Source: Candidatus Shapirobacteria bacterium
GTDB lineage: Bacteria; Patescibacteriota; Microgenomatia; UBA12405
Reading direction: 5' to 3'
DNA length: 64,000 nt
NCBI GenBank assembly: GCA_041661765.1
Contig: JBAZTV010000001.1
Location: 300,791-364,790, forward strand
Part shown: in pieces, positions 11,091 through 51,894 of the stretch
How positions within the stretch are numbered: position 1 is the stretch's first letter
Layout of the letters: each line of letters starts with the position of its first letter
Position numbers and translations under genes: made by a program
Notes under the pieces: model-generated
Database searches by the model: none
Seen by the model: only the letters and a program-made list of their open reading frames with translations
What the model was told of the DNA's origin: nothing

Positions 11091-13022
11091 ATGGAAGATA
11101 TTTTAGAAGGTTTAAACCCAAATCAAAAAGAAGCAGTTATCCATATTGGCTCTCCTTTGCTTTTATTAGCTGGAGCTGGTTCTGGTAAAACTCGAGTTTT
11201 AACTCACCGTGTAGCCTATTTTATTCAAAAAAAAATTGCCAAACCATCAGAAATTTTACTTCTCACTTTCACCAATAAGGCCGCCGAGGAGATGAGAAAC
11301 CGTACTAATAGATTAATTGTAGAGACGCCCCGACGGGGCGTCTCTACAACTGATAAAAATAATAAATCTTTATTAAAACAAAATATTTTTGCTGGAACTT
11401 TTCATTCTTTTTGCTGTCGAGTTTTACGTGCCGATGGCAATAATATTGGCATTCCCCCTAAATTTGTTATTTACGACTCAAATGATCAGGAAAATTTAAT
11501 CAAAAATATTCTTCACGAACTTGGCTTAACTACTAAAGAATTTAAACCTTCCAGCGTCTTATATTATATCGAAGCCGCAAAAAATTCTTTTCAAACTCCA
11601 AAAGACATGATTGCCCAAAGTCATGGTTTTTGGCAAGATTATGCCAGTAAAATTTATTCTCGTTACCAACAAAAACTATTTGAATTTCATGCTCTCGATT
11701 TTAACGATCTTTTATTTAAAACCGTTGAATTATTTTTACAATATCCAGATGTTTTGGCTAAATATCAAGATATTTATAAATTTATTATGGTTGATGAATA
11801 TCAAGACACTAATCAAATTCAATATCTTCTAACCAAACTTTTAGCCAAAAAATACAACCAAATTACTGTTGTTGGCGATGCTTCGCAGGCAATTTATGGT
11901 TGGCGCGGTGCCGATTATCGCAATCTTGTTAGTTTTACTACCGATTTCAAAAATACCAAAGTTATTAATCTTGAAGAAAACTATCGTTCCACTCAAATTA
12001 TTCTCGATGCTGCCAATACAGTCATTTCTAAAAATAATTCTCATCCAATTTTAAAATTATTCACTCAAAAAAAATCAGAAGATAAAATAAAAATTTTTGA
12101 AGCCGAATCAGAGGTTGCCGAGGCTGACTTTACTGCTTCCAAAATTAAATTTATTAATGATAATTTAAAAATTCCTTTGCGAAATATTGCCGTTCTTTAC
12201 CGGATGAATGCTCAATCGCGTGTTTTAGAAGAAGCCTTTTTGCGTCAGAGCATCCCTTATGTTTTATTAGGTGGGATTCGTTTTTATGAGCGTGCCGAAA
12301 TCAAAGATATTTTATCGATGCTTCGTTTTGCCAGTAATCCTGCAGATCATATTTCCGAAGAGAGAATCGAAAAAGCATTAGGCAAACGCAAAAAAGCAGT
12401 TCTAATTAATCATCTTGAAGATATGGATTTAGAAAACCTCACTTCACTTCAAATACTAGAATCATTGGTTGTAAATTCTGGCTATCTTAATAAATTTGAT
12501 GCTAAAGATGAGGAAGATCAGAAAAGAATTGAAAATATTAAAGAATTAAAATCAGTTGCTGCCGCACATCCTCAATTAAGTGCTTTTTTAGAAAATATCA
12601 CTTTAGTTCAACAAGAATATTCTCTTCAAGAAAAAAATAAGAAAAAAGAAAAACGCGACGGAGTTAAACTAATGACTCTTCACAGTGCCAAAGGTTTGGA
12701 GTTTGAAGTTGTTTTTATGGTTGGTTTTGAAGAGGGAATTTTACCTCACTCTCGCTGCCTAATTAACGAATCAGAAATCGAAGAAGAACGTCGTCTTTGT
12801 TATGTTGGTATTACTCGTGCGAAAGATTATCTTTATATTTCATATGCCAATAAACGTCTATTTTTCGGTAAAAGTAGCCTCAATGAACCGAGTCGATTTT
12901 TAGCCGATATTCCTCAAGAATTAGTTGAATTTGAGGAAAGTTTAGAAACCGTTCATGATTATCGCCATCCCAGAAAATCCAAAGACGATGATGACATCAT
13001 TTATGATCCCGATATATACTAA
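11091..13022 (+). CDS. UvrD/PcrA-family ATP-dependent DNA helicase
   Basis: Walker A AGAGSGKTRVL, DEYQDTN (motif II), later helicase motifs (GDASQAIYGWRGA, TLHSAKGLEF, GITRAKD); contains in-frame REP hairpin insertion at 11317..11349. Confidence 0.85.
   Translation: MEDILEGLNPNQKEAVIHIGSPLLLLAGAGSGKTRVLTHRVAYFIQKKIAKPSEILLLTFTNKAAEEMRNRTNRLIVETPRRGVSTTDKNNKSLLKQNIFAGTFHSFCCRVLRADGNNIGIPPKFVIYDSNDQENLIKNILHELGLTTKEFKPSSVLYYIEAAKNSFQTPKDMIAQSHGFWQDYASKIYSRYQQKLFEFHALDFNDLLFKTVELFLQYPDVLAKYQDIYKFIMVDEYQDTNQIQYLLTKLLAKKYNQITVVGDASQAIYGWRGADYRNLVSFTTDFKNTKVINLEENYRSTQIILDAANTVISKNNSHPILKLFTQKKSEDKIKIFEAESEVAEADFTASKIKFINDNLKIPLRNIAVLYRMNAQSRVLEEAFLRQSIPYVLLGGIRFYERAEIKDILSMLRFASNPADHISEERIEKALGKRKKAVLINHLEDMDLENLTSLQILESLVVNSGYLNKFDAKDEEDQKRIENIKELKSVAAAHPQLSAFLENITLVQQEYSLQEKNKKKEKRDGVKLMTLHSAKGLEFEVVFMVGFEEGILPHSRCLINESEIEEERRLCYVGITRAKDYLYISYANKRLFFGKSSLNEPSRFLADIPQELVEFEESLETVHDYRHPRKSKDDDDIIYDPDIY
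11317..11349. repeat. REP hairpin inserted in-frame in UvrD/PcrA helicase gene: TTGTAGAGACGCC-CCGACGG-GGCGTCTCTACAA
   Basis: 13-bp perfect stem, 7-nt loop; GC-rich island in AT-rich CDS; translated as ...VETPRRGVSTTDK... Confidence 0.7.
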
Positions 13023-17025: not shown

Positions 17026-17325
17026 ATGTCTTTACCAAAGATTTCTATGGTCGAATTAGAGCATATTGCTAAACTGGCCAGAATCAATTTATCAGAATCT
17101 GAAAAGAATACTTTCTTGCCACAGCTCGAATCTGTCTTAAATTCTTTTGATGTTTTAAATAAAATTAATACCGACAATGTTGAGCCAACTTTTAGAGTCA
17201 ATAAACAATCAAATGTTTTTCGTCAGGATGAGATAAAGGAATCATTACCACAATCTGTCGCACTTTCCACTGCCGCTGTCACTAAAGATGGTTATTTTGT
17301 TGTCACCAACACTATCAAAAAATAA
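17026..17325 (+). CDS. gatC: Asp-tRNA(Asn)/Glu-tRNA(Gln) amidotransferase subunit C
   Basis: 99 aa; ELEHIAKLARINLSE... GatC signature; followed immediately by gatA and gatB. Confidence 0.8.
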   Translation: MSLPKISMVELEHIAKLARINLSESEKNTFLPQLESVLNSFDVLNKINTDNVEPTFRVNKQSNVFRQDEIKESLPQSVALSTAAVTKDGYFVVTNTIKK

Positions 17326-17326
17326 T

Positions 17327-18790
17327 ATGGACTATTCAACTCTTTCTATTCAGCAAATTCGTCAACTGTTACTCGACAAAAAAGCCACAGCAACAGAAAT
17401 CACTAAATTTTTTATCGATCGTGTCAAAAATATTGACCCTAAAATTAATGCCTTTGTTACCATTACTGAAAAAGAAGCCCTAAGACAGGCAGAAATTTTA
17501 GATGCCAAAATAAGTAAAGGTGAGAAAATTGGTAAATTAGCCGGATCAATCATGGCTGTTAAAGATATTTATTTAACTAAAGACATTCAAACTACTTCCA
17601 GTTCTCAAGTTTTAAAAGGCTATATTCCTCAATATTCTTCCACTGTCTATCAAAAATTAATTGACGAAGATGCCATAATCATCGGCAAAACCAATACCGA
17701 TCCTTTTGCTTTTGGTGGTTCCACTGAAAATTCTGGTTTTTTTACCACTAAAAATCCTTGGAACCTAGATATGGTTCCTGGCGGTTCTTCTGGTGGTTCA
17801 GCTGCTGCCATCGCCGCTAATCTTTGTCATTTTGCCCTCGGTACCGACACTGGTGGTTCCATTCGTCAACCAGCTTCGCTTTGTGGCGTTTCTGGTCTTA
17901 AACCAACTTATGGATTAAATTCTCGTTACGGCATCACCAGTATGGCCTCATCGTTTGATTGTCCTGGTGTGTTTGCTAGAACCGTGACCGACATTGCCAC
18001 TGTCACTCAAATCACTGCTGGACACGACCCTTATGACGCCACTTCAATTAATCAATCAATACCTGACTACACTAAACTTTTAGACAGTGTCAATCTTTCT
18101 GGTTTAAAAATTGGTTTACCAAAAGAATATTTTTCCAGTGCCATCAATAGTGAAGTAAAAAATAAAATAATGGAGACTGCAAAATTATTTGAAAGTAAAG
18201 GATCCATTCTTAAAGAAGTTTCTTTACCAAGTACCGATTTAGGTCTGGCAGTTTATTACATTTTGGTTCCCTCAGAAATTTCTGCCAACATGGCTCGCTA
18301 TGACGGTATTCGTTGTGGTCAAACAATTTCTAATTCAGCTGACATAATTTCTTATTACATGAATACTCGTGGTCAATTTATGGAACCAGAAATAAAACGT
18401 CGAATTTTAATCGGCACTTATGCCCTATCTTCTGGTTATTATGATGCCTATTACACCAAAGCCGCCAAAGTTCGTACCTTAATCAAAAAAGAATTTACAG
18501 ATGTTTTATCCGAAGTTGATGTTATTTTGGCTCCCTGTTCTCCTACCACAGCTTGGAAAATTGGCGCCAAATGCGACAATCCTCTCGAAATGTATTTAGC
18601 CGATATTTACACTGTTTGTATTAATGTTGCCGGTGTCCCATCAATCGCCCTTCCCTGTGGTTTTGATTCCCAAAAATTACCCATCGGTTTTCAGTTAATC
18701 GGTAACTTTTTTGAAGAATCTAAAATTATGTCCGTTGGTCATCAATATCAACAATTCACCGATTATCATTTACAACAACCAAAAATATAA
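17327..18790 (+). CDS. gatA: Glu-tRNA(Gln) amidotransferase subunit A (amidase signature family)
   Basis: ATG at 17327 one nt after gatC stop (MDYSTLSIQQIR...); amidase GGSSGGSAAA motif and Ser-cisSer-Lys signature. Confidence 0.9.
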   Translation: MDYSTLSIQQIRQLLLDKKATATEITKFFIDRVKNIDPKINAFVTITEKEALRQAEILDAKISKGEKIGKLAGSIMAVKDIYLTKDIQTTSSSQVLKGYIPQYSSTVYQKLIDEDAIIIGKTNTDPFAFGGSTENSGFFTTKNPWNLDMVPGGSSGGSAAAIAANLCHFALGTDTGGSIRQPASLCGVSGLKPTYGLNSRYGITSMASSFDCPGVFARTVTDIATVTQITAGHDPYDATSINQSIPDYTKLLDSVNLSGLKIGLPKEYFSSAINSEVKNKIMETAKLFESKGSILKEVSLPSTDLGLAVYYILVPSEISANMARYDGIRCGQTISNSADIISYYMNTRGQFMEPEIKRRILIGTYALSSGYYDAYYTKAAKVRTLIKKEFTDVLSEVDVILAPCSPTTAWKIGAKCDNPLEMYLADIYTVCINVAGVPSIALPCGFDSQKLPIGFQLIGNFFEESKIMSVGHQYQQFTDYHLQQPKI

Positions 18791-33379: not shown

Positions 33380-33406
33380 GTAGAGACGACCAATATGGGC
33401 GTCTCA
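33380..33406. repeat. degenerate REP hairpin (GTAGAGACG-ACCAATATGGG-CGTCTC)
   Basis: Between grpE stop and dnaK start. Confidence 0.45.
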
Positions 33407-33464
33407 AATAAAAAATTTAAAAATAATTTTATAAATTAAAAGTTAAAGATTAAATAAAAAACAT

Positions 33465-35372
33465 ATGTCAAATAAAATCATCGGAATCGATCTTGGCACC
33501 ACCAATTCCTGCGTAGCAGTTATGGAAGGTGGTTCTCCAAAAGTTATTATCAGTTCAGAAGGCCGCAATACCATTCCTTCTATTGTCGAGCCAGTTAAAA
33601 AACTAGTTGGCGATTTAGCTAAACGACAAATGGTTCTTAACTCTAAAAACACTATTTATAGTGTTAAAAGATTAATGGGCCGCCGAATGGACGACCCAGA
33701 GGTTAAAAAAAGTCAAGCAGCTTCTCCTTATAAGATAGTTGCCGGTAAAGACAATACCGCCTGTGTTGAAATTGATGGTAAAGTTTATACCCCTCAAGAA
33801 ATTTCGGCCATGATTTTACAAAAATGCAAAGCCGACGCTGAAAAATATCTCGGCGAAAAAGTTACAGATGCTGTCATTACTGTCCCAGCCTATTTTGATG
33901 ACTCCCAACGACAAGCCACTAAACAAGCCGGAGAAATTGCCGGTCTTAATGTTCAACGAATTGTTAACGAACCAACCGCTGCTGCTTTAGCTTATGGTTT
34001 AGATAAAAAAGGTAATGAATTGGTTGCAGTTTATGATTTAGGTGGAGGTACTTTTGATATTTCCATCCTAGAAATTGGTGGTGGAATTTTCGAAGTCAAA
34101 TCCACTAATGGTGATACTTTCCTCGGCGGTGATGATTTTGATCAAAAAATTATCACTTGGATTAGTGACGATTTTCAAAAACAAAATGGCGTCGATTTAA
34201 GTAAAGATCCTCAAGCTCTTCAACGTGTTCGAGAAGCTGCTGAAAAAGCCAAAATCGAGCTCAGCTCTGCCGCTGAAACAGAAATTAATTTACCTTTCAT
34301 CACTCAAAAAGACGGTCAACCACTTCATTTGACTAAAAAACTGACTCGATCCGAATTGGAAAAATTAGTCGATGATTTGATCCAAAAAACCATTGGTCCA
34401 GTTGAAAAATCTCTCAAGGACGCTGGTGTGTCTAAAAACGATATTAAAGAGATAATTATGGTTGGTGGTATGACTCGTATGCCTAAAATTCAAGAAGTTG
34501 TTAAAAATTTCTTTGGTAAAGATTTAAATAATACTGTTAATCCAGATGAAGTCGTTGCCATCGGTGCTGCTGTTCAAGGTGCTGTTTTAACTGGTGAAGT
34601 TAAAGATGTAGTTCTATTAGATGTCACTCCTTTAACTCTCGGCATTGAGACTGCTGGCGGTGTTCGTACCCCTCTGATCGATAGAAATACCACTGTTCCT
34701 ACTAAAAAATCTCAAGTCTTTACCACTTATGCTGACAGTCAACCCCAGGTGGAAATCAATGTTCTTCAAGGTGAACGACCAATGGCCACTGATAATAAAA
34801 CTCTAGGCCGCTTTGTTTTAGACGGTATTGCCCCAGCTCCTCGTGGCATGCCTCAAATTGAAGTCACTTTTGATATCGACAGTAACGGTATTCTCTCTGT
34901 TTCTGCCAAAGATAAGGGCACAAATAAAGAACAAAAAATTACCATTCAAAACGCCACTAATCTTAAAGAAGAAGAAATTGAGCAGATGAAAAAAGAAGCT
35001 GAAGCTCACGCTCAAGAAGATGAAGATCGAAAAGGTCTAGCTGAAGCTAAAAATAAATTAGACGGTACCATTTTTTCTGGTGAAAAAACTTTAAAGGATT
35101 TTGCCGATAAAGTTAAACCAGAAGATAAGGAAAAAATCGAAGCTCAACTTAAGACTGCTCGAGAGATTTTAGCTAAAACTGATACTAATAAAGATGAATT
35201 AGATAAAGCTTCAGAAGAATTAAACCAAATTTTACAAACAATTGGTGCTGCTATTTATCAACAACAGGCTCCGCCAACCGGTGGTCCGGAAGCCGAAGCT
35301 CAACCAAAAGCCGAAGAATCAAAATCAGACAATTCTAAAAAAGAAGCTGAAGAAGGCGAAGTCGTTCAATAA
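33465..35372 (+). CDS. dnaK: molecular chaperone DnaK (Hsp70)
   Basis: [22 protein letters not shown], full Hsp70 NBD+SBD; 635 aa. Confidence 0.95.
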
Positions 35373-35384
35373 TAATATTATTCC

Positions 35385-35412
35385 GTAGAGACGCCATGCA
35401 TGGCGTCTCTAC
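35385..35412. repeat. REP hairpin, 28-nt perfect palindrome GTAGAGACGCCATG|CATGGCGTCTCTAC
   Basis: Between dnaK stop and dnaJ start. Confidence 0.6.
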
Positions 35413-44409: not shown

Positions 44410-46152
44410 ATGTTAAAACAAAAAACAAATTTTACAAATGCACCCAATCAAGTCAGAGAATATAAATCTGGAACTGATTCGGTCCGAATCAGTTCACTTG
44501 GTGGTTTCGGTGACGTTACTCAGAATATGTTCGTTTACGAATTTATTCCTAGTGGCGACGCATCCAAAAGCCAAATTATTATTGTCGACTGTGGTGTCGG
44601 TTTTCCTGAAGAAGATGCTTTTGGCGTCGATCTTCAAATACCAGACACTCACTATCTTCAAGACAAAAAAGACCGAATTTTAGGTATTTTTATAACCCAT
44701 GGTCATGAAGATCATATCGGTGCTGTCCGTTTTATTCTACCTATTCTTGGGCAGAATATTCCCATATATTCTCCCAAATTAGCCGCTGCTTTTATCGAAG
44801 CCAGACTTGGTGAAGTTCAAATTCGTGCCAATCTTCAGACTTATGACGAGTCGACTTTACCAATTGTTAAAGGTGTTTTTACTGTCGATCCAATTAGGGT
44901 TACTCATTCGATTCCTGACACTTATCATTTCGCCATCACCACCCCCATGGGTATTTTTTACCATGGTTCCGATTTTAAATTAGACCTTTTTCCTCTCGAT
45001 GGCAAAGGTGCTGATTATCAACACATTGCCCGTATTGGTGAAGGTAAAGTTATTGCTCTAATGTCTGATAGTTTAGGTTCTGATCATGAAGGTTGGTCAC
45101 CATCAGAAGGTTCTATTGCTGAAAATTTTAAAAGAGAAATAGTCTCTGCAAAAGGTCGTGTTTTTGTCACTTCAATTTCCAGTAATATCGTTCGTTGGGC
45201 TCAAGCCATTGAATATGGTAAAAGTGTTGGCCGAAAAATAGTTATTGTTGGTTTCTCTGTCGACAGAGCTATTAATATTGCTAAAGATTTAGGTTATGTA
45301 ACCCTTGCCGAGACTGATCTTATTCCTCTTGAAAGAGTTAAAAATTTTGCCGAAAATAAACTTTTATTTCTAGTTGCCGGTTTTGCCGGTCAACCAGATT
45401 CAGCTTTAAGTAAAATGATTATGGGTAAACACAGGGTAAAAGTTAAATCTGGAGATAAAGTCATTTTTTCTTCTCCAGATTACATTCCTGGTACTACTTC
45501 TAATATTTATAATATGATTGACCTTCTTTCTAAAATGGGCGCTGAAGTCATTTATGGTGAAAAAGAAGAATTACATGTTTCCGGTCATGGTTATCAAAAA
45601 GAACATGCTCTTTTAATCAGTTTATTAAAACCAAAATATTTATTACCAATTGGTGGTAATTATCGTCATCTCAAATGCTATCAACAAATGGCTAAAAAAT
45701 TAGGCTATAACGATGATCAAGTTATTTTACCCGATTTCGATGCTTCAGCCACTTTTCACAACAATGGTACAGTTGACACTAATTATCACATCTCCATCAG
45801 AAAAATTTTAATCGATGGTTTTGGAGTTGGTGATGTCGGCACTACTGTCTTACGTGATCGTAAATTATTGGCCGAAGATGGAATGTTCTCTGTTGTCCTT
45901 TTAATGGACAAAGAATCTGGCCAATTAAGTAAACCACCCGTAATTCTTAGCCGTGGTTTCGTTTTCATGAAAGAAAATACCGAACTTATGGACTTTTTAA
46001 AATTAGAGGTTAGTAACAAATTTAAACAATCCACCAGCACTCCGGCCAATATGGATTTCATTCGTGAAGAAGTTCAGGCTTATCTCGAAGAAATTATTTA
46101 CAAAAAAACCGGCCGCCAACCTATGGTCTTACCGCTGGTTATTGAGGTCTAA
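44410..46152 (+). CDS. rnj: ribonuclease J (beta-CASP metallo-beta-lactamase RNase)
   Basis: HGHEDHIGA motif, beta-CASP and C-terminal domain; 580 aa. Confidence 0.85.
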   Translation: MLKQKTNFTNAPNQVREYKSGTDSVRISSLGGFGDVTQNMFVYEFIPSGDASKSQIIIVDCGVGFPEEDAFGVDLQIPDTHYLQDKKDRILGIFITHGHEDHIGAVRFILPILGQNIPIYSPKLAAAFIEARLGEVQIRANLQTYDESTLPIVKGVFTVDPIRVTHSIPDTYHFAITTPMGIFYHGSDFKLDLFPLDGKGADYQHIARIGEGKVIALMSDSLGSDHEGWSPSEGSIAENFKREIVSAKGRVFVTSISSNIVRWAQAIEYGKSVGRKIVIVGFSVDRAINIAKDLGYVTLAETDLIPLERVKNFAENKLLFLVAGFAGQPDSALSKMIMGKHRVKVKSGDKVIFSSPDYIPGTTSNIYNMIDLLSKMGAEVIYGEKEELHVSGHGYQKEHALLISLLKPKYLLPIGGNYRHLKCYQQMAKKLGYNDDQVILPDFDASATFHNNGTVDTNYHISIRKILIDGFGVGDVGTTVLRDRKLLAEDGMFSVVLLMDKESGQLSKPPVILSRGFVFMKENTELMDFLKLEVSNKFKQSTSTPANMDFIREEVQAYLEEIIYKKTGRQPMVLPLVIEV

Positions 46153-46193: not shown

Positions 46194-46793
46194 GTGCCAT
46201 TAATCAATATTCAAACCAAATTTGCTGACAAATTTAAATTAAAATCATCTCGTCTTCAAAACTGGAATTATTCAACTCCAGGATATTACTTCATCACCAT
46301 CTGTACCCACAACCACAATAATTTTTTTGGAAAAATTATTAACAACAAGATGGAATTGTCAAAACGTGGTGAAATTACTAAATCTGAATTATTAAAAACA
46401 TTTGAAATCAGAAAAAATATTAAATTACATGAATGGGTAATTATGCCAAATCATGTGCATGTTTTAATGGAAATTGAAAAACAAAATTATCAACACAATA
46501 AATGTAGAGACGTAGCGCGCTACGTCTCTACAAAACTAAACAACATCTCTACAGAAGAAAATAATAAAAATTTTTCAAAAATTTCACCCAAACCAAATTC
46601 AATTTCATCAATAATACGTTCATTCAAATCAGCCGTTACCCATCAAATAAATCCCAAAACAATATTTTTTGCTTAGCAACCCCGTTTCCACGATCAGATC
46701 ATTAAAGATGAAAAAGAATATTTTTTAATCAAAAAATACATTCAAAATAATATAAAAAATTGGGATAAAGATAATTTTTTTAGTTTAAAGTAA
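46194..46793 (+). pseudogene. REP-associated tyrosine transposase (RAYT / IS200-like TnpA_REP), disrupted by in-frame REP insertion and an internal TAG
   Basis: HUH motif MPNHVHVLM; ORF stops at TAG 46674..46676 exactly where RAYTs have the conserved Trp of (I/L)WQxRF(H/Y)D; downstream frame continues QPRFHDQIIKDEKEYFLIKKYIQNNIKNW... to TAA at 46791..46793; REP hairpin 46503..46532 sits in-frame inside the gene. Confidence 0.6.
46503..46532. repeat. REP hairpin inside RAYT gene: TGTAGAGACGTAGCG|CGCTACGTCTCTACA
   Basis: Perfect 30-nt palindrome; translated in-frame as ...KCRDVARYVSTK... Confidence 0.7.
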
Positions 46794-47027
46794 ATTTCTT
46801 CCTGGGTAGTCCGGATTCATTTTTTCATCGTCGTTTACTGGTGAACAGAGTTTTATTCTGGCTGTTATTCGATTTTCGGCAATTTTTTTATGGGTTTCAA
46901 AAGCATTCATTAATTGTTTTTTTGGATCATCACTTATTTTAGTTGCCTGAGCAATTCTTTTAGCTTCTTTCGAGAAACATATTTCAGTTCCCGTTATACA
47001 TCTTTCGCATGATCTTGGTTCTGCCAT
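46785..47027 (-). CDS. hypothetical small Cys-containing protein (possible zinc-ribbon)
   Basis: 80 aa ORF with N-terminal CERC; weak. Confidence 0.3.
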   Translation of the reverse strand: MAEPRSCERCITGTEICFSKEAKRIAQATKISDDPKKQLMNAFETHKKIAENRITARIKLCSPVNDDEKMNPDYPGRNLL

Positions 47028-51705: not shown

Positions 51706-51894
51706 GTAGAGACGCATTGTATGCGTCTCTTGGTAATAAATTCAAAATAAAACATAATTAATTTAGAGACGCACGCAGTGCGTCTCTACTGACGATAAAT
51801 AAAATTTTATAGAGACGTTCTACAGAACGTCTCTATTGATATAAAAATTGAATAATTTGTTTAGTAGTAGGAACACGCCATGGCGTGTTCCTAC
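51706..51894. repeat. tandem cluster of four REP hairpins (GTAGAGACG-type x3 plus GTAGGAACACGCC variant)
   Basis: 51706..51732 GTAGAGACGCAT-TGT-ATGCGTCTCT; 51764..51788 TAGAGACGCAC-GCA-GTGCGTCTCTA; 51810..51835 TAGAGACGTTC-TACA-GAACGTCTCTA; 51867..51894 GTAGGAACACGCCA|TGGCGTGTTCCTAC. Confidence 0.7.

What the first reader, a model, noticed from the sequence alone, without database searches (positions are those of the whole stretch)
46194..46793. REP-associated tyrosine transposase (RAYT) gene present but apparently inactivated, next to its own REP family
The ORF encodes an IS200-like HUH enzyme (MPNHVHVLM). It carries an in-frame perfect REP palindrome (46503..46532). It stops at a TAG positioned exactly at the conserved Trp codon of the RAYT C-terminal (I/L)W-Q-x-R-F-(H/Y)-D motif, after which the same frame continues QPRFHDQIIKDEKEYFLIKKYIQNN... 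TAG is used as a genuine stop elsewhere in this window (e.g. the DUF2298 gene), so this is most simply a TGG->TAG nonsense mutation. The genome therefore holds a REP family whose cognate transposase looks recently disabled, possibly by its own elements. Readthrough or programmed recoding is a less likely alternative.
Basis: partly seen in the sequence, partly recalled or inferred. Interest (0 to 1): 0.65.

Follow-up and report, generated by a model that had tools for sequence, protein, structure and literature searches.

The report
Broken duplicate of a REP transposase
One of at least two copies of a small hairpin-handling transposase gene in a Candidatus Shapirobacteria genome carries a single G-to-A change that turns a conserved tryptophan codon into a stop. 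The hairpin inside the gene is a normal, already published trait of this transposase family, so this is an ordinary recent pseudogene.

Summary
ORF 46194..46676 encodes an HUH/Y1 enzyme. It ends at TAG exactly on the invariant Trp of the WQxRF motif, and the same frame runs on for 38 codons through the catalytic Tyr. A perfect 30-nt GTAG-footed palindrome sits in frame at 46503..46532.

1. The in-frame REP is not damage. It is the published hallmark of subclass 2.4 TnpA_REP (Quentin et al. 2018). I found it in 60 of 105 full-length homologues from many phyla, and it is present in the intact paralogue.
2. The genome has not lost its enzyme.
3. Over the 162 nt of the paralogue's DNA that I could compare, the two copies differ only by that G/A and one synonymous change. 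Identity then drops abruptly to 71%. This pattern fits a gene-conversion tract followed by one very recent G>A transition, or a base-calling or assembly error.

TAG is a true stop elsewhere in the window, and no suppressor tRNA is present. Verdict: a routine, recently broken spare copy of a known RAYT subclass, newly seen in CPR bacteria.

The parts
46194..46676 (+). 5' part of the RAYT (TnpA_REP, HUH/Y1) gene: GTG start, 160 codons, premature TAG
   Evidence: ORF list and translation. Pfam PF01797 Y1_Tnp E=6e-6; NCBIfam REP_Tyr_transpos is the best hit at 59 bits. The annotated protein MFA6184859.1 / P0121 is identical.
46452..46460 (+). HUH motif codons His87-Val88-His89 (within MPNHVHVLM, 46443-46469)
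   Evidence: P85, H87 and H89 are invariant in alignment A1. The motif aligns to the HMH motif of E. coli TnpA_REP 4ER8, whose HUH residues are H59/M60/H61.
46503..46532 (.). Intragenic 'double-foot' REP: perfect palindrome TGTAGAGACGTAGCG|CGCTACGTCTCTACA, read in frame as CRDVARYVST in the linker after the HUH strand
   Evidence: The same 30-mer occurs inside homologous genes in L004, L005 and L006. The AF2 model of homologue P0007 puts this peptide in a low-confidence loop, residues 98-119.
46674..46676 (+). Premature stop TAG at the invariant Trp161 codon of the WQxRF motif. The A at 46675 is G in the paralogue.
46677..46793 (+). Untranslated remainder of the gene in the same frame: the rest of the beta4 strand and the helix carrying catalytic Tyr182 (TAC, 46737-46739), with TAA at 46791-46793
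   Evidence: Tyr182 is invariant and aligns to catalytic Y115 of 4ER8. In the AF2 model the equivalent Trp150 lies in strand 150-158 and Tyr171 in helix 162-173.
46215..46715 (+). Tract identical to the intact paralogue P0122 (codons 8-174, apart from the stop). Inferred gene-conversion tract with abrupt boundaries on both sides.
   Evidence: Protein comparison. DNA was checked for 46554-46715 against L103: 2 differences, followed by 23 differences in 78 nt.
11317..11349 (.). REP unit of the same family, in frame inside the UvrD-like helicase gene (VETPRRGVST)
33380..33407 (.). Degenerate REP unit, intergenic, upstream of ORF 33465..35372
35385..35412 (.). Perfect REP unit GTAGAGACGCCATG|CATGGCGTCTCTAC, intergenic
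51706..51894 (.). Cluster of four REP units (51706-51731, 51764-51789, 51809-51836, and the variant GTAGGAAC... at 51867-51894) in one intergenic region

Best explanation
The locus is a subclass 2.4 (Bertels group 4) REP-associated tyrosine transposase gene of a Candidatus Shapirobacteria genome. It sits in a slot between rnj and proS that is conserved in relatives. Like most members of its subclass, it carries a GTAG-footed 'double-foot' REP hairpin in frame, in the surface linker between the HUH strand and the next helix. This is normal for the family and does not inactivate the protein.

The central 501 bp of the gene (codons 8-174) are shared with a second, intact RAYT gene of the same genome. 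The most likely cause is gene conversion between the paralogues. After that event, a single G>A transition at 46675 changed the invariant Trp161 codon TGG to TAG.

The predicted 160-aa product keeps the HUH metal site but lacks the last core strand and the helix with the nucleophile Tyr182. It therefore cannot cleave or join DNA. The intact paralogue remains available to act on the genome's GTAGAGACG REPs.

What is shown and what is inferred:
- Shown: the sequence anatomy, family membership, existence of the paralogue, and the identity profile.
- Inferred: gene conversion, the order of events, loss of activity, and that the base call is correct.
For: Family and fold:
- Pfam Y1_Tnp hit and NCBIfam REP_Tyr_transpos as best hit.
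- E. coli TnpA_REP 4ER8 is the only PDB sequence hit and the top Foldseek hit.

Subclass 2.4 criteria from Quentin 2018 are all met: NH[IFV]H, WQ, YIxNNP, about 194 aa, double-foot REP, and REP inside the gene between HuH and Y.

The stop and what it removes:
- Trp is invariant at the stop column.
- Tyr182 aligns to catalytic Y115 of 4ER8.

The intact paralogue:
- Its DNA (L103) differs from the window at only 2 of 162 positions, one of them TGG/TAG. Identity then falls to 71%.
- The ends of the window copy are somewhat closer to the positional orthologue L096 (78% against 71% over the last 77 nt).
- Mosaic paralogues also occur in a relative's contig, L085.

TAG as a real stop: TAG terminates six other ORFs, and the window holds no tRNA genes.

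Nonsense changes at Trp or Gln codons recur in other homologues: L001/L002, L021, L055, and L057, which has TAG at the same Trp plus a second stop.
Against: - I had no read-level data, so the single A at 46675 could be a consensus error or a minority allele. Two copies sharing a roughly 500-bp identical segment invite mis-assignment of reads.
- The paralogue's DNA was available only for its 3' 240 nt, and from another sample's contig (L103). The 5' boundary of the tract therefore rests on protein identity alone.
- The 445-kb contig itself could not be fetched.
- Nothing tests whether the truncated product is made or is inert.
Confidence: 0.7

Rival explanations
1. The TAG is an artefact or a minority allele. 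The real gene would be intact, and the A at 46675 would come from a sequencing or consensus error, a population polymorphism, or mis-assigned reads between the two near-identical paralogues in a metagenome assembly.
For: The genome is a MAG. The stop is the only non-synonymous difference from the paralogue across 167 codons. The downstream 38 codons are undamaged. The roughly 500-bp near-identical repeat is a classic source of consensus errors.
Against: The same TAG appears in the JGI and NCBI gene calls, though both probably derive from the same assembly. G>A at a TGG codon is among the most likely real nonsense mutations, accounting for 7-20% of nonsense paths in this gene. Comparable single stops are seen in independent homologues from other samples. 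L001 and L002 share a TGA in two different runs.
Confidence: 0.15
2. The truncated 160-aa protein is retained and functional. It has the HUH motif but no Tyr, and it would bind REP hairpins and modulate or inhibit the intact paralogue, in the way truncated transposase derivatives regulate some insertion sequences (analogy from memory).
For: The N-terminal part keeps the HUH beta-sheet core modelled with high confidence in the homologue P0007. Premature in-frame stops with an otherwise intact frame recur in about 7 of roughly 105 homologous loci.
Against: The stops in other homologues fall at different positions, and one locus (L057) has two, which looks like decay. The missing beta4 strand belongs to the core sheet, so the fragment may not fold. 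No lineage shows conservation of the truncated form beyond near-identical sequences.
Confidence: 0.06
3. Programmed stop-codon readthrough or TAG recoding yields a full-length, low-abundance transposase.
For: The frame is open and conserved after the TAG, including the catalytic Tyr. Low-level expression is a common theme for transposases (general knowledge).
Against: TAG ends six other ORFs that are followed by unrelated genes. The window has no tRNA genes and no Rfam element. Near-cognate decoding of UAG would not restore Trp (general knowledge). The paralogue encodes the same residues with a plain TGG.
Confidence: 0.03
4. One reading: the RAYT was inactivated by insertion of its own REP element into the coding sequence.
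For: A REP of the genome's own family lies inside the ORF.
Against: The REP is in frame and is present unchanged in the intact paralogue. 60 of 105 full-length homologues carry one at the same relative position, 0.50 +/- 0.07 of the gene length. It is read in two frames and never in the third, which would contain TAG. The literature already describes this as a tolerated feature of subclass 2.4. The modelled linker is a disordered surface loop.
Confidence: 0.02

Closest known systems
Subclass 2.4 TnpA_REP / TnpA_Y1 (Quentin et al. 2018, BMC Genomics 19:475, PMC6006769); corresponds to RAYT group 4 of Bertels et al. 2017 (PMC5581495)
   Same: Motifs NHVH, WQ (in the paralogue; TAG-Q here) and YIxNN. 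Length 197-199 aa against a mean of 194. 'Double-foot' REPs with 5' GTAG and 3' CTAC. [quoted passage not shown] More than one copy per genome is not unusual (mean 1.5 in their Table 1)..
   Different: The host is a CPR/Patescibacteria lineage (Ca. Shapirobacteria). The paper lists the subclass as 'Cyanobacteria Bacteroidetes and various phyla' and I did not check whether CPR was sampled. This copy carries a nonsense codon. No REPs flank the gene within about 5 kb.
E. coli TnpA_REP (RayT/YafM), PDB 4ER8 (Messing et al. 2012, PMC3479197)
   Same: HUH/Y1 fold: top Foldseek hit, TM 0.57/0.64. Aligned HUH, WQPRF and catalytic Tyr. Substrates are hairpins with a 5' GTAG foot.
   Different: Only about 18% identity. 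E. coli belongs to subclass 2.2, whose REPs are bulged, imperfect and extragenic. It has no intragenic REP linker. The C-terminal extension that contacts GTAG differs.
IS200/IS605 TnpA (IS608, ISDra2)
   Same: Same HUH/Y1 catalytic core and use of ssDNA hairpins.
   Different: Those enzymes sit inside a defined IS with subterminal hairpins and copy themselves. Here NCBIfam transpos_IS200 scores only 15 bits against 59 for the REP type, and there are no IS ends around the gene.
Intragenic REPs/RPEs in protein-coding genes (Di Nocera et al. 2013, PMC3733652; Rickettsia RPEs as cited there)
   Same: Short GTAG palindromes inserted in frame in functional genes, notably DNA repair genes. The window shows this in its UvrD-like helicase gene.
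   Different: Here the host gene is the transposase itself. That paper does not appear to report this case; it was reported later by Quentin et al. 2018.

Membership tests
HUH / Y1 transposase superfamily (Pfam PF01797) | Significant match to the Y1_Tnp profile | tested here: met
   The repaired 199-aa protein scores 26.8 bits, above the cut-off of 23, E=6e-6. The 160-aa fragment alone scores 21 bits, below the cut-off.
HUH / Y1 transposase superfamily (Pfam PF01797) | His-hydrophobic-His motif and a single catalytic Tyr on a C-terminal helix | tested here: met
   H87-V88-H89 and Y182 are invariant in homologues and align to the HMH motif and Y115 of 4ER8. In this copy the Tyr lies after the premature stop.
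HUH / Y1 transposase superfamily (Pfam PF01797) | Fold of the catalytic domain | tested here: met
   AF2 model of homologue P0007 (79% identical; pLDDT 76.6, core above 90). The top PDB hits are 4er8_A, then the ISDra2, IS608 and IS200 transposases.
RAYT / TnpA_REP | NCBIfam NF047646 REP_Tyr_transpos at or above its curated cut-off | tested here: not met
   59 bits against a cut-off of 80. It is still by far the best NCBIfam hit. The model probably under-represents subclass 2.4 and the REP linker splits the match; that is my inference.
RAYT / TnpA_REP | Genome carries a family of GT[AG]G-footed palindromes (REPs) | tested here: met
   8 units in 64 kb. GTAGAGACG occurs 9 times against 0.05 expected.
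RAYT / TnpA_REP | REPs immediately flank the gene | tested here: not met
   No GC-rich hairpin lies between 44495 and 51708 except the internal one. The internal REP takes that role in subclass 2.4.
RAYT / TnpA_REP | Enzyme binds and cleaves its cognate REP ssDNA | not testable with these tools
   Needs purified P0122 protein and GTAGAGACG hairpin oligonucleotides.
Subclass 2.4 TnpA_REP (Quentin 2018) | Motifs NH[IFV]H, WQ and YIxNNP; mean length 194 aa | tested here: met
   NHVH is present. WQ is present in the paralogue and in all homologues, with TAG-Q here. The Y motif is YIQNNI here and YIINNP in the paralogue. Lengths are 199 and 197 aa.
Subclass 2.4 TnpA_REP (Quentin 2018) | 'Double-foot' REP: 5' GT[AG]G and 3' C[TC]AC | tested here: met
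   GTAGAGACG...CGTCTCTAC in all perfect units.
Subclass 2.4 TnpA_REP (Quentin 2018) | [quoted passage not shown] | tested here: met
   The REP at 46503-46532 starts 14 codons after the HUH motif. 60 of 105 full-length homologues have one at the same place.

The most novel reading that the evidence does not exclude
The intragenic REP may be the enzyme's own substrate. Nicking there during replication would seed gene conversion between paralogous RAYT genes, a homing-like cassette exchange. This would explain three things:
- the 501-bp tract identical to the paralogue, which has the REP inside it and abrupt edges;
- the occurrence of all four combinations of the sequence modules on either side of the REP linker among homologues;
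- the very divergent, sometimes inverted, RAYT alleles in the conserved rnj-proS slot.
On this reading the TAG copy would be a silent cassette in such a system rather than simple debris.
Probability: 0.08. Interest if true: 0.6.

Novelty: new member of a known kind. Interest (0 to 1): 0.2.

Why it matters
It matters little for biology at large. The case documents that subclass 2.4 RAYTs, with their self-contained in-frame REP, occur in multiple mosaic copies in CPR/Patescibacteria genomes, and that individual copies decay by simple nonsense mutations.

For annotation there are two practical points. Peptides such as CRDVARYVST or VETxxxASL inside these genes, and inside other genes such as the UvrD-like helicase here, mark REP hairpins rather than damage. 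A truncated RAYT does not by itself mean that the genome's REP family has been orphaned.

The mosaic, gene-conversion-like structure of the paralogues is the only aspect that might repay further work.

Tried and rejected
- A second RAYT copy in the window: tblastn found none.
- Fetching the source contig or the paralogue locus by exact protein look-up: neither P0001 nor P0122 is on record. The metagenome scan returned only a 2.4-kb contig (L103) covering the paralogue's 3' end, so the 5' boundary of the shared tract could not be checked at the DNA level.
- TAG recoding: rejected. TAG ends six other ORFs, and the two cases where the next ORF is in the same frame are unrelated genes (DUF2298 then UvrD-like; AlaRS then an unknown protein). 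The window has no tRNA genes and no Rfam match.
- Stops enriched at Trp codons as a sign of programming: 4 of 9 stops in homologues lie at Trp codons, against 7-20% expected from mutation paths. This is a mild excess with small numbers. All are GC>AT transitions and one locus has two stops, so I read it as mutation bias.
- The intragenic REP as a new discovery: rejected after finding it described in PMC6006769.
- Promoter and terminator scan around the gene: nothing above the shuffled background except the REP itself, scored on the minus strand.
- Pfam scan of the small antisense ORF 46785..47027: no hit.

Full report
**1. What is in the sequence**

The ORF at 46194..46676 on the + strand starts with GTG and has 160 codons. 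It ends at TAG (46674-46676). The same frame continues QPRFHDQIIKDEKEYFLIKKYIQNNIKNWDKDNFFSLK to a TAA at 46791-46793.

- The HUH motif MPNHVHVLM lies at 46443-46469.
- The 30-nt sequence at 46503-46532, TGTAGAGACGTAGCG|CGCTACGTCTCTACA, is a perfect palindrome read in frame as CRDVARYVST. As single-stranded DNA it folds at -12.9 kcal/mol, z = -7.1 against shuffles.
- The 9-mer GTAGAGACG occurs 9 times in the 64-kb window against 0.05 expected.
- A relaxed search gives seven TAGAGACG-core hairpins plus one GTAGGAAC variant. Their positions are 11317-11349, 33380-33407, 35385-35412, 46503-46532, a cluster of three at 51706-51836, and the variant at 51867-51894.
- Apart from the internal copy, none lies within about 5 kb of the gene.

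**2. What the gene is**

- With the stop read as Trp, the 199-aa protein matches Pfam Y1_Tnp (PF01797) at 26.8 bits, above the cut-off of 23.
- The best NCBIfam model is REP_Tyr_transpos at 59 bits, below its cut-off of 80. The IS200 model scores 15 bits.
- A search of 5.8 billion proteins gave 260 relatives, typically 185-230 aa. The named ones are mostly from Candidatus Shapirobacteria.
- In alignments of 32 and 67 sequences, the column of the TAG is Trp in every homologue. The HUH histidines and Tyr182 are invariant.
- A profile of the family hits one solved structure, E. coli TnpA_REP (4ER8). The HUH motif, the WQPRF motif and the Tyr all align. That Tyr is the catalytic Y115 (PMC3479197).
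- An AlphaFold model of the 79%-identical homologue P0007 has a confident core. Its best PDB match is 4er8_A, followed by IS200/IS605 transposases.
- In the model the Trp lies in the last core strand and the Tyr in the following helix.

The TAG therefore removes a core strand and the nucleophile.

**3. The in-frame REP is a family trait, not damage**

Almost every aligned homologue carries hairpin-encoded peptides in the same linker after the HUH strand. Examples are CRDVARYVST, CRDVLQNVST and VETPxxASL.

At the DNA level, 60 of 105 full-length genes contain a GT[AG]G...C[TC]AC palindrome with arms of at least 9 nt. The genes were fetched from GTDB genomes and JGI metagenomes. They come from records labelled Patescibacteria, Bacteroidota, Chloroflexota, Cyanobacteria, Ignavibacteriota and others.

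- The palindrome lies at relative position 0.50 +/- 0.07 of the gene.
- It is read in two frames (36 and 28 cases).
- It is never read in the third frame, which would contain TAG.

This has been published. Quentin et al. 2018 (PMC6006769) define subclass 2.4 of TnpA_Y1 by:
- the motifs NH[IFV]H, WQ and YIxNNP;
- a mean length of 194 aa;
- 'double foot' REPs.

[quoted passage not shown] The window gene meets each of these criteria.

Di Nocera et al. 2013 (PMC3733652) had already reported in-frame GTAG REPs in other genes, particularly repair genes. The window's UvrD-like helicase (11091..13022) carries one, encoding VETPRRGVST, and still matches the full Pfam UvrD domains.

**4. The genome has an intact second copy**

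The 90%-identity cluster of the truncated protein contains three entries, all listed with a contig of 445,083 bp:
- the JGI call of the truncated protein;
- NCBI MFA6184859.1 (160 aa);
- a 197-aa protein, MFA6184796.1.

The 197-aa protein (P0122) is identical to the window translation over residues 8-174, including the REP peptide, except Trp versus stop at residue 161. It differs at all five aligned positions among the first seven residues and at 12 of the last 25.

It is not in the window. The accession numbers are 63 apart, which is more genes than the window holds on either side of the RAYT.

A 2.4-kb metagenome contig (L103) encodes the last 79 residues of P0122 exactly, followed by a different downstream gene. 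Its DNA compares with the window as follows:

| Window interval | Differences from L103 |
|---|---|
| 46554-46715 | 2: G/A at 46675 (TGG/TAG) and a synonymous change at 46697 |
| 46716 onward | 23 differences in 78 nt (71% identity) |

**5. The genomic slot and mosaic copies**

The gene lies between rnj and proS, and this arrangement recurs in relatives. In those relatives RNase J is 80-98% identical, but the RAYT in the slot is only 48-72% identical. In three loci the RAYT is inverted.

The 3' end of the window copy is somewhat closer to the positional orthologue L096 than to the paralogue, 78% against 71% over the last 77 nt. Its centre is closer to the paralogue, 97% against 68%. L096 also shares the reading frame entering the GTG start (FSV...).

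A relative's contig (L085) holds two copies with the reverse mosaic. They are about 90% identical at both ends and 40-70% identical in the middle.

Across 67 homologues, the sequence modules before and after the REP linker occur in all four combinations.

The simplest reading is recurrent gene conversion among paralogues. In the window, a single G>A change followed such an event.

**6. Alternatives**

- *Recoding or readthrough.* TAG ends six other ORFs. Where the next ORF is in the same frame, the two genes are unrelated. The window has no tRNA gene and no Rfam match. The paralogue uses a plain TGG.
- *Mutation bias.* Premature stops in an otherwise open frame occur in about seven of roughly 105 homologous loci:
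  - TGA at another Trp, shared by two samples (L001/L002);
  - TAA at the Gln next to the Trp (L021);
  - TGA at a C-terminal Trp (L055);
  - TAG at the very same Trp plus a second stop (L057);
  - single stops at other positions in L050 and L067.
  
  In this AT-rich gene, Trp codons account for 7-20% of single-step nonsense paths. Recurrence at Trp codons is therefore what GC>AT mutation pressure predicts.
- *Error or polymorphism.* I cannot exclude this without reads. The shared 500-bp tract makes it plausible, and I give it 0.15.
- *A functional truncated regulator.* This is possible but has no support.

**7. Verdict**

This is a recently broken, or mis-called, spare copy of a subclass 2.4 RAYT in a CPR genome. 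Its in-frame REP is the known hallmark of the subclass, and an intact paralogue remains.

Novelty: a new member of a known kind. Interest is low (0.2).

The only thread with some novelty is the mosaic, conversion-like exchange among paralogues around the REP linker. It might be initiated by the enzyme at its own intragenic hairpin. I rate that at about 0.08.

Noticed in passing
window 11317-11349 (inside ORF 11091..13022): A REP palindrome of the same family lies in frame inside the UvrD-like helicase gene (peptide VETPRRGVST), between the TFTNKAA and GTFHSFC motifs. The Pfam UvrD domains are still matched end to end.
   Followed up: partly
window 33380-33407 and 35385-35412: REP units bracket ORF 33465..35372 (DnaK-like by its N-terminal sequence; not tested). 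A degenerate unit lies upstream and a perfect unit starts 13 nt after the stop, directly before the next ORF. This may act as a terminator or mRNA-stabilising element.
   Followed up: no
window 51706-51894: Four REP units sit in one 230-nt intergenic region upstream of alaS, one of them a GTAGGAAC variant. The first two can pair with each other into a longer REPIN/BIME-like structure.
   Followed up: partly
window 44471-44495: A perfect 12-bp-stem hairpin, GAACTGATTCGG-T-CCGAATCAGTTC, lies inside the 5' end of the rnj coding sequence. It is unrelated to the REP family and is partly retained in relatives L003, L008, L016 and L101.
   Followed up: partly
L016, L101, L102, L003, L008, L086, L004, L096, L090 (rnj-RAYT-proS loci): The slot between rnj and proS holds a RAYT gene in many Shapirobacteria. 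The allele is only 48-72% identical where RNase J is 80-98% identical. It is inverted in L016, L101 and L102.
   Followed up: partly
L001:156-770, L002:155-769; L021, L055, L057, L050, L067: Other homologues carry single in-frame stops with an otherwise open frame. L001 and L002, from two sequencing runs, share a TGA at a Trp codon. L057 has TAG at the same conserved Trp as the window plus a second stop. L021 has TAA at the Gln after that Trp.
   Followed up: partly
alignment A3 (67 homologues); L085:9991-10594 and 17097-17667: The family is modular. Two alternative sequence modules before the REP linker and two after it occur in all four combinations. The REP reading frame (RDV..VST or VET..ASL) is completely linked to the downstream module. 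Two paralogues 7 kb apart in L085 are about 90% identical at both ends and 40-70% identical in the middle.
   Followed up: partly
window 46785-47027 (- strand): An 80-aa ORF on the opposite strand overlaps the RAYT 3' end by 9 nt. It has a 43%-identical counterpart at the same place in L096 and no Pfam match.
   Followed up: partly
L004, L005, L006 and window 46503-46532; L007, L026, L028, L048: Identical 28-30-nt intragenic palindromes recur in genes that are only 55-67% identical at the protein level, and in MAGs labelled as different phyla. Examples are GTAGAGACGTAGCGCGCTACGTCTCTAC and GTAGAGACGTTGCATGCAACGTCTCTAC. This implies DNA-level constraint, repeated conversion or horizontal transfer.
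   Followed up: no
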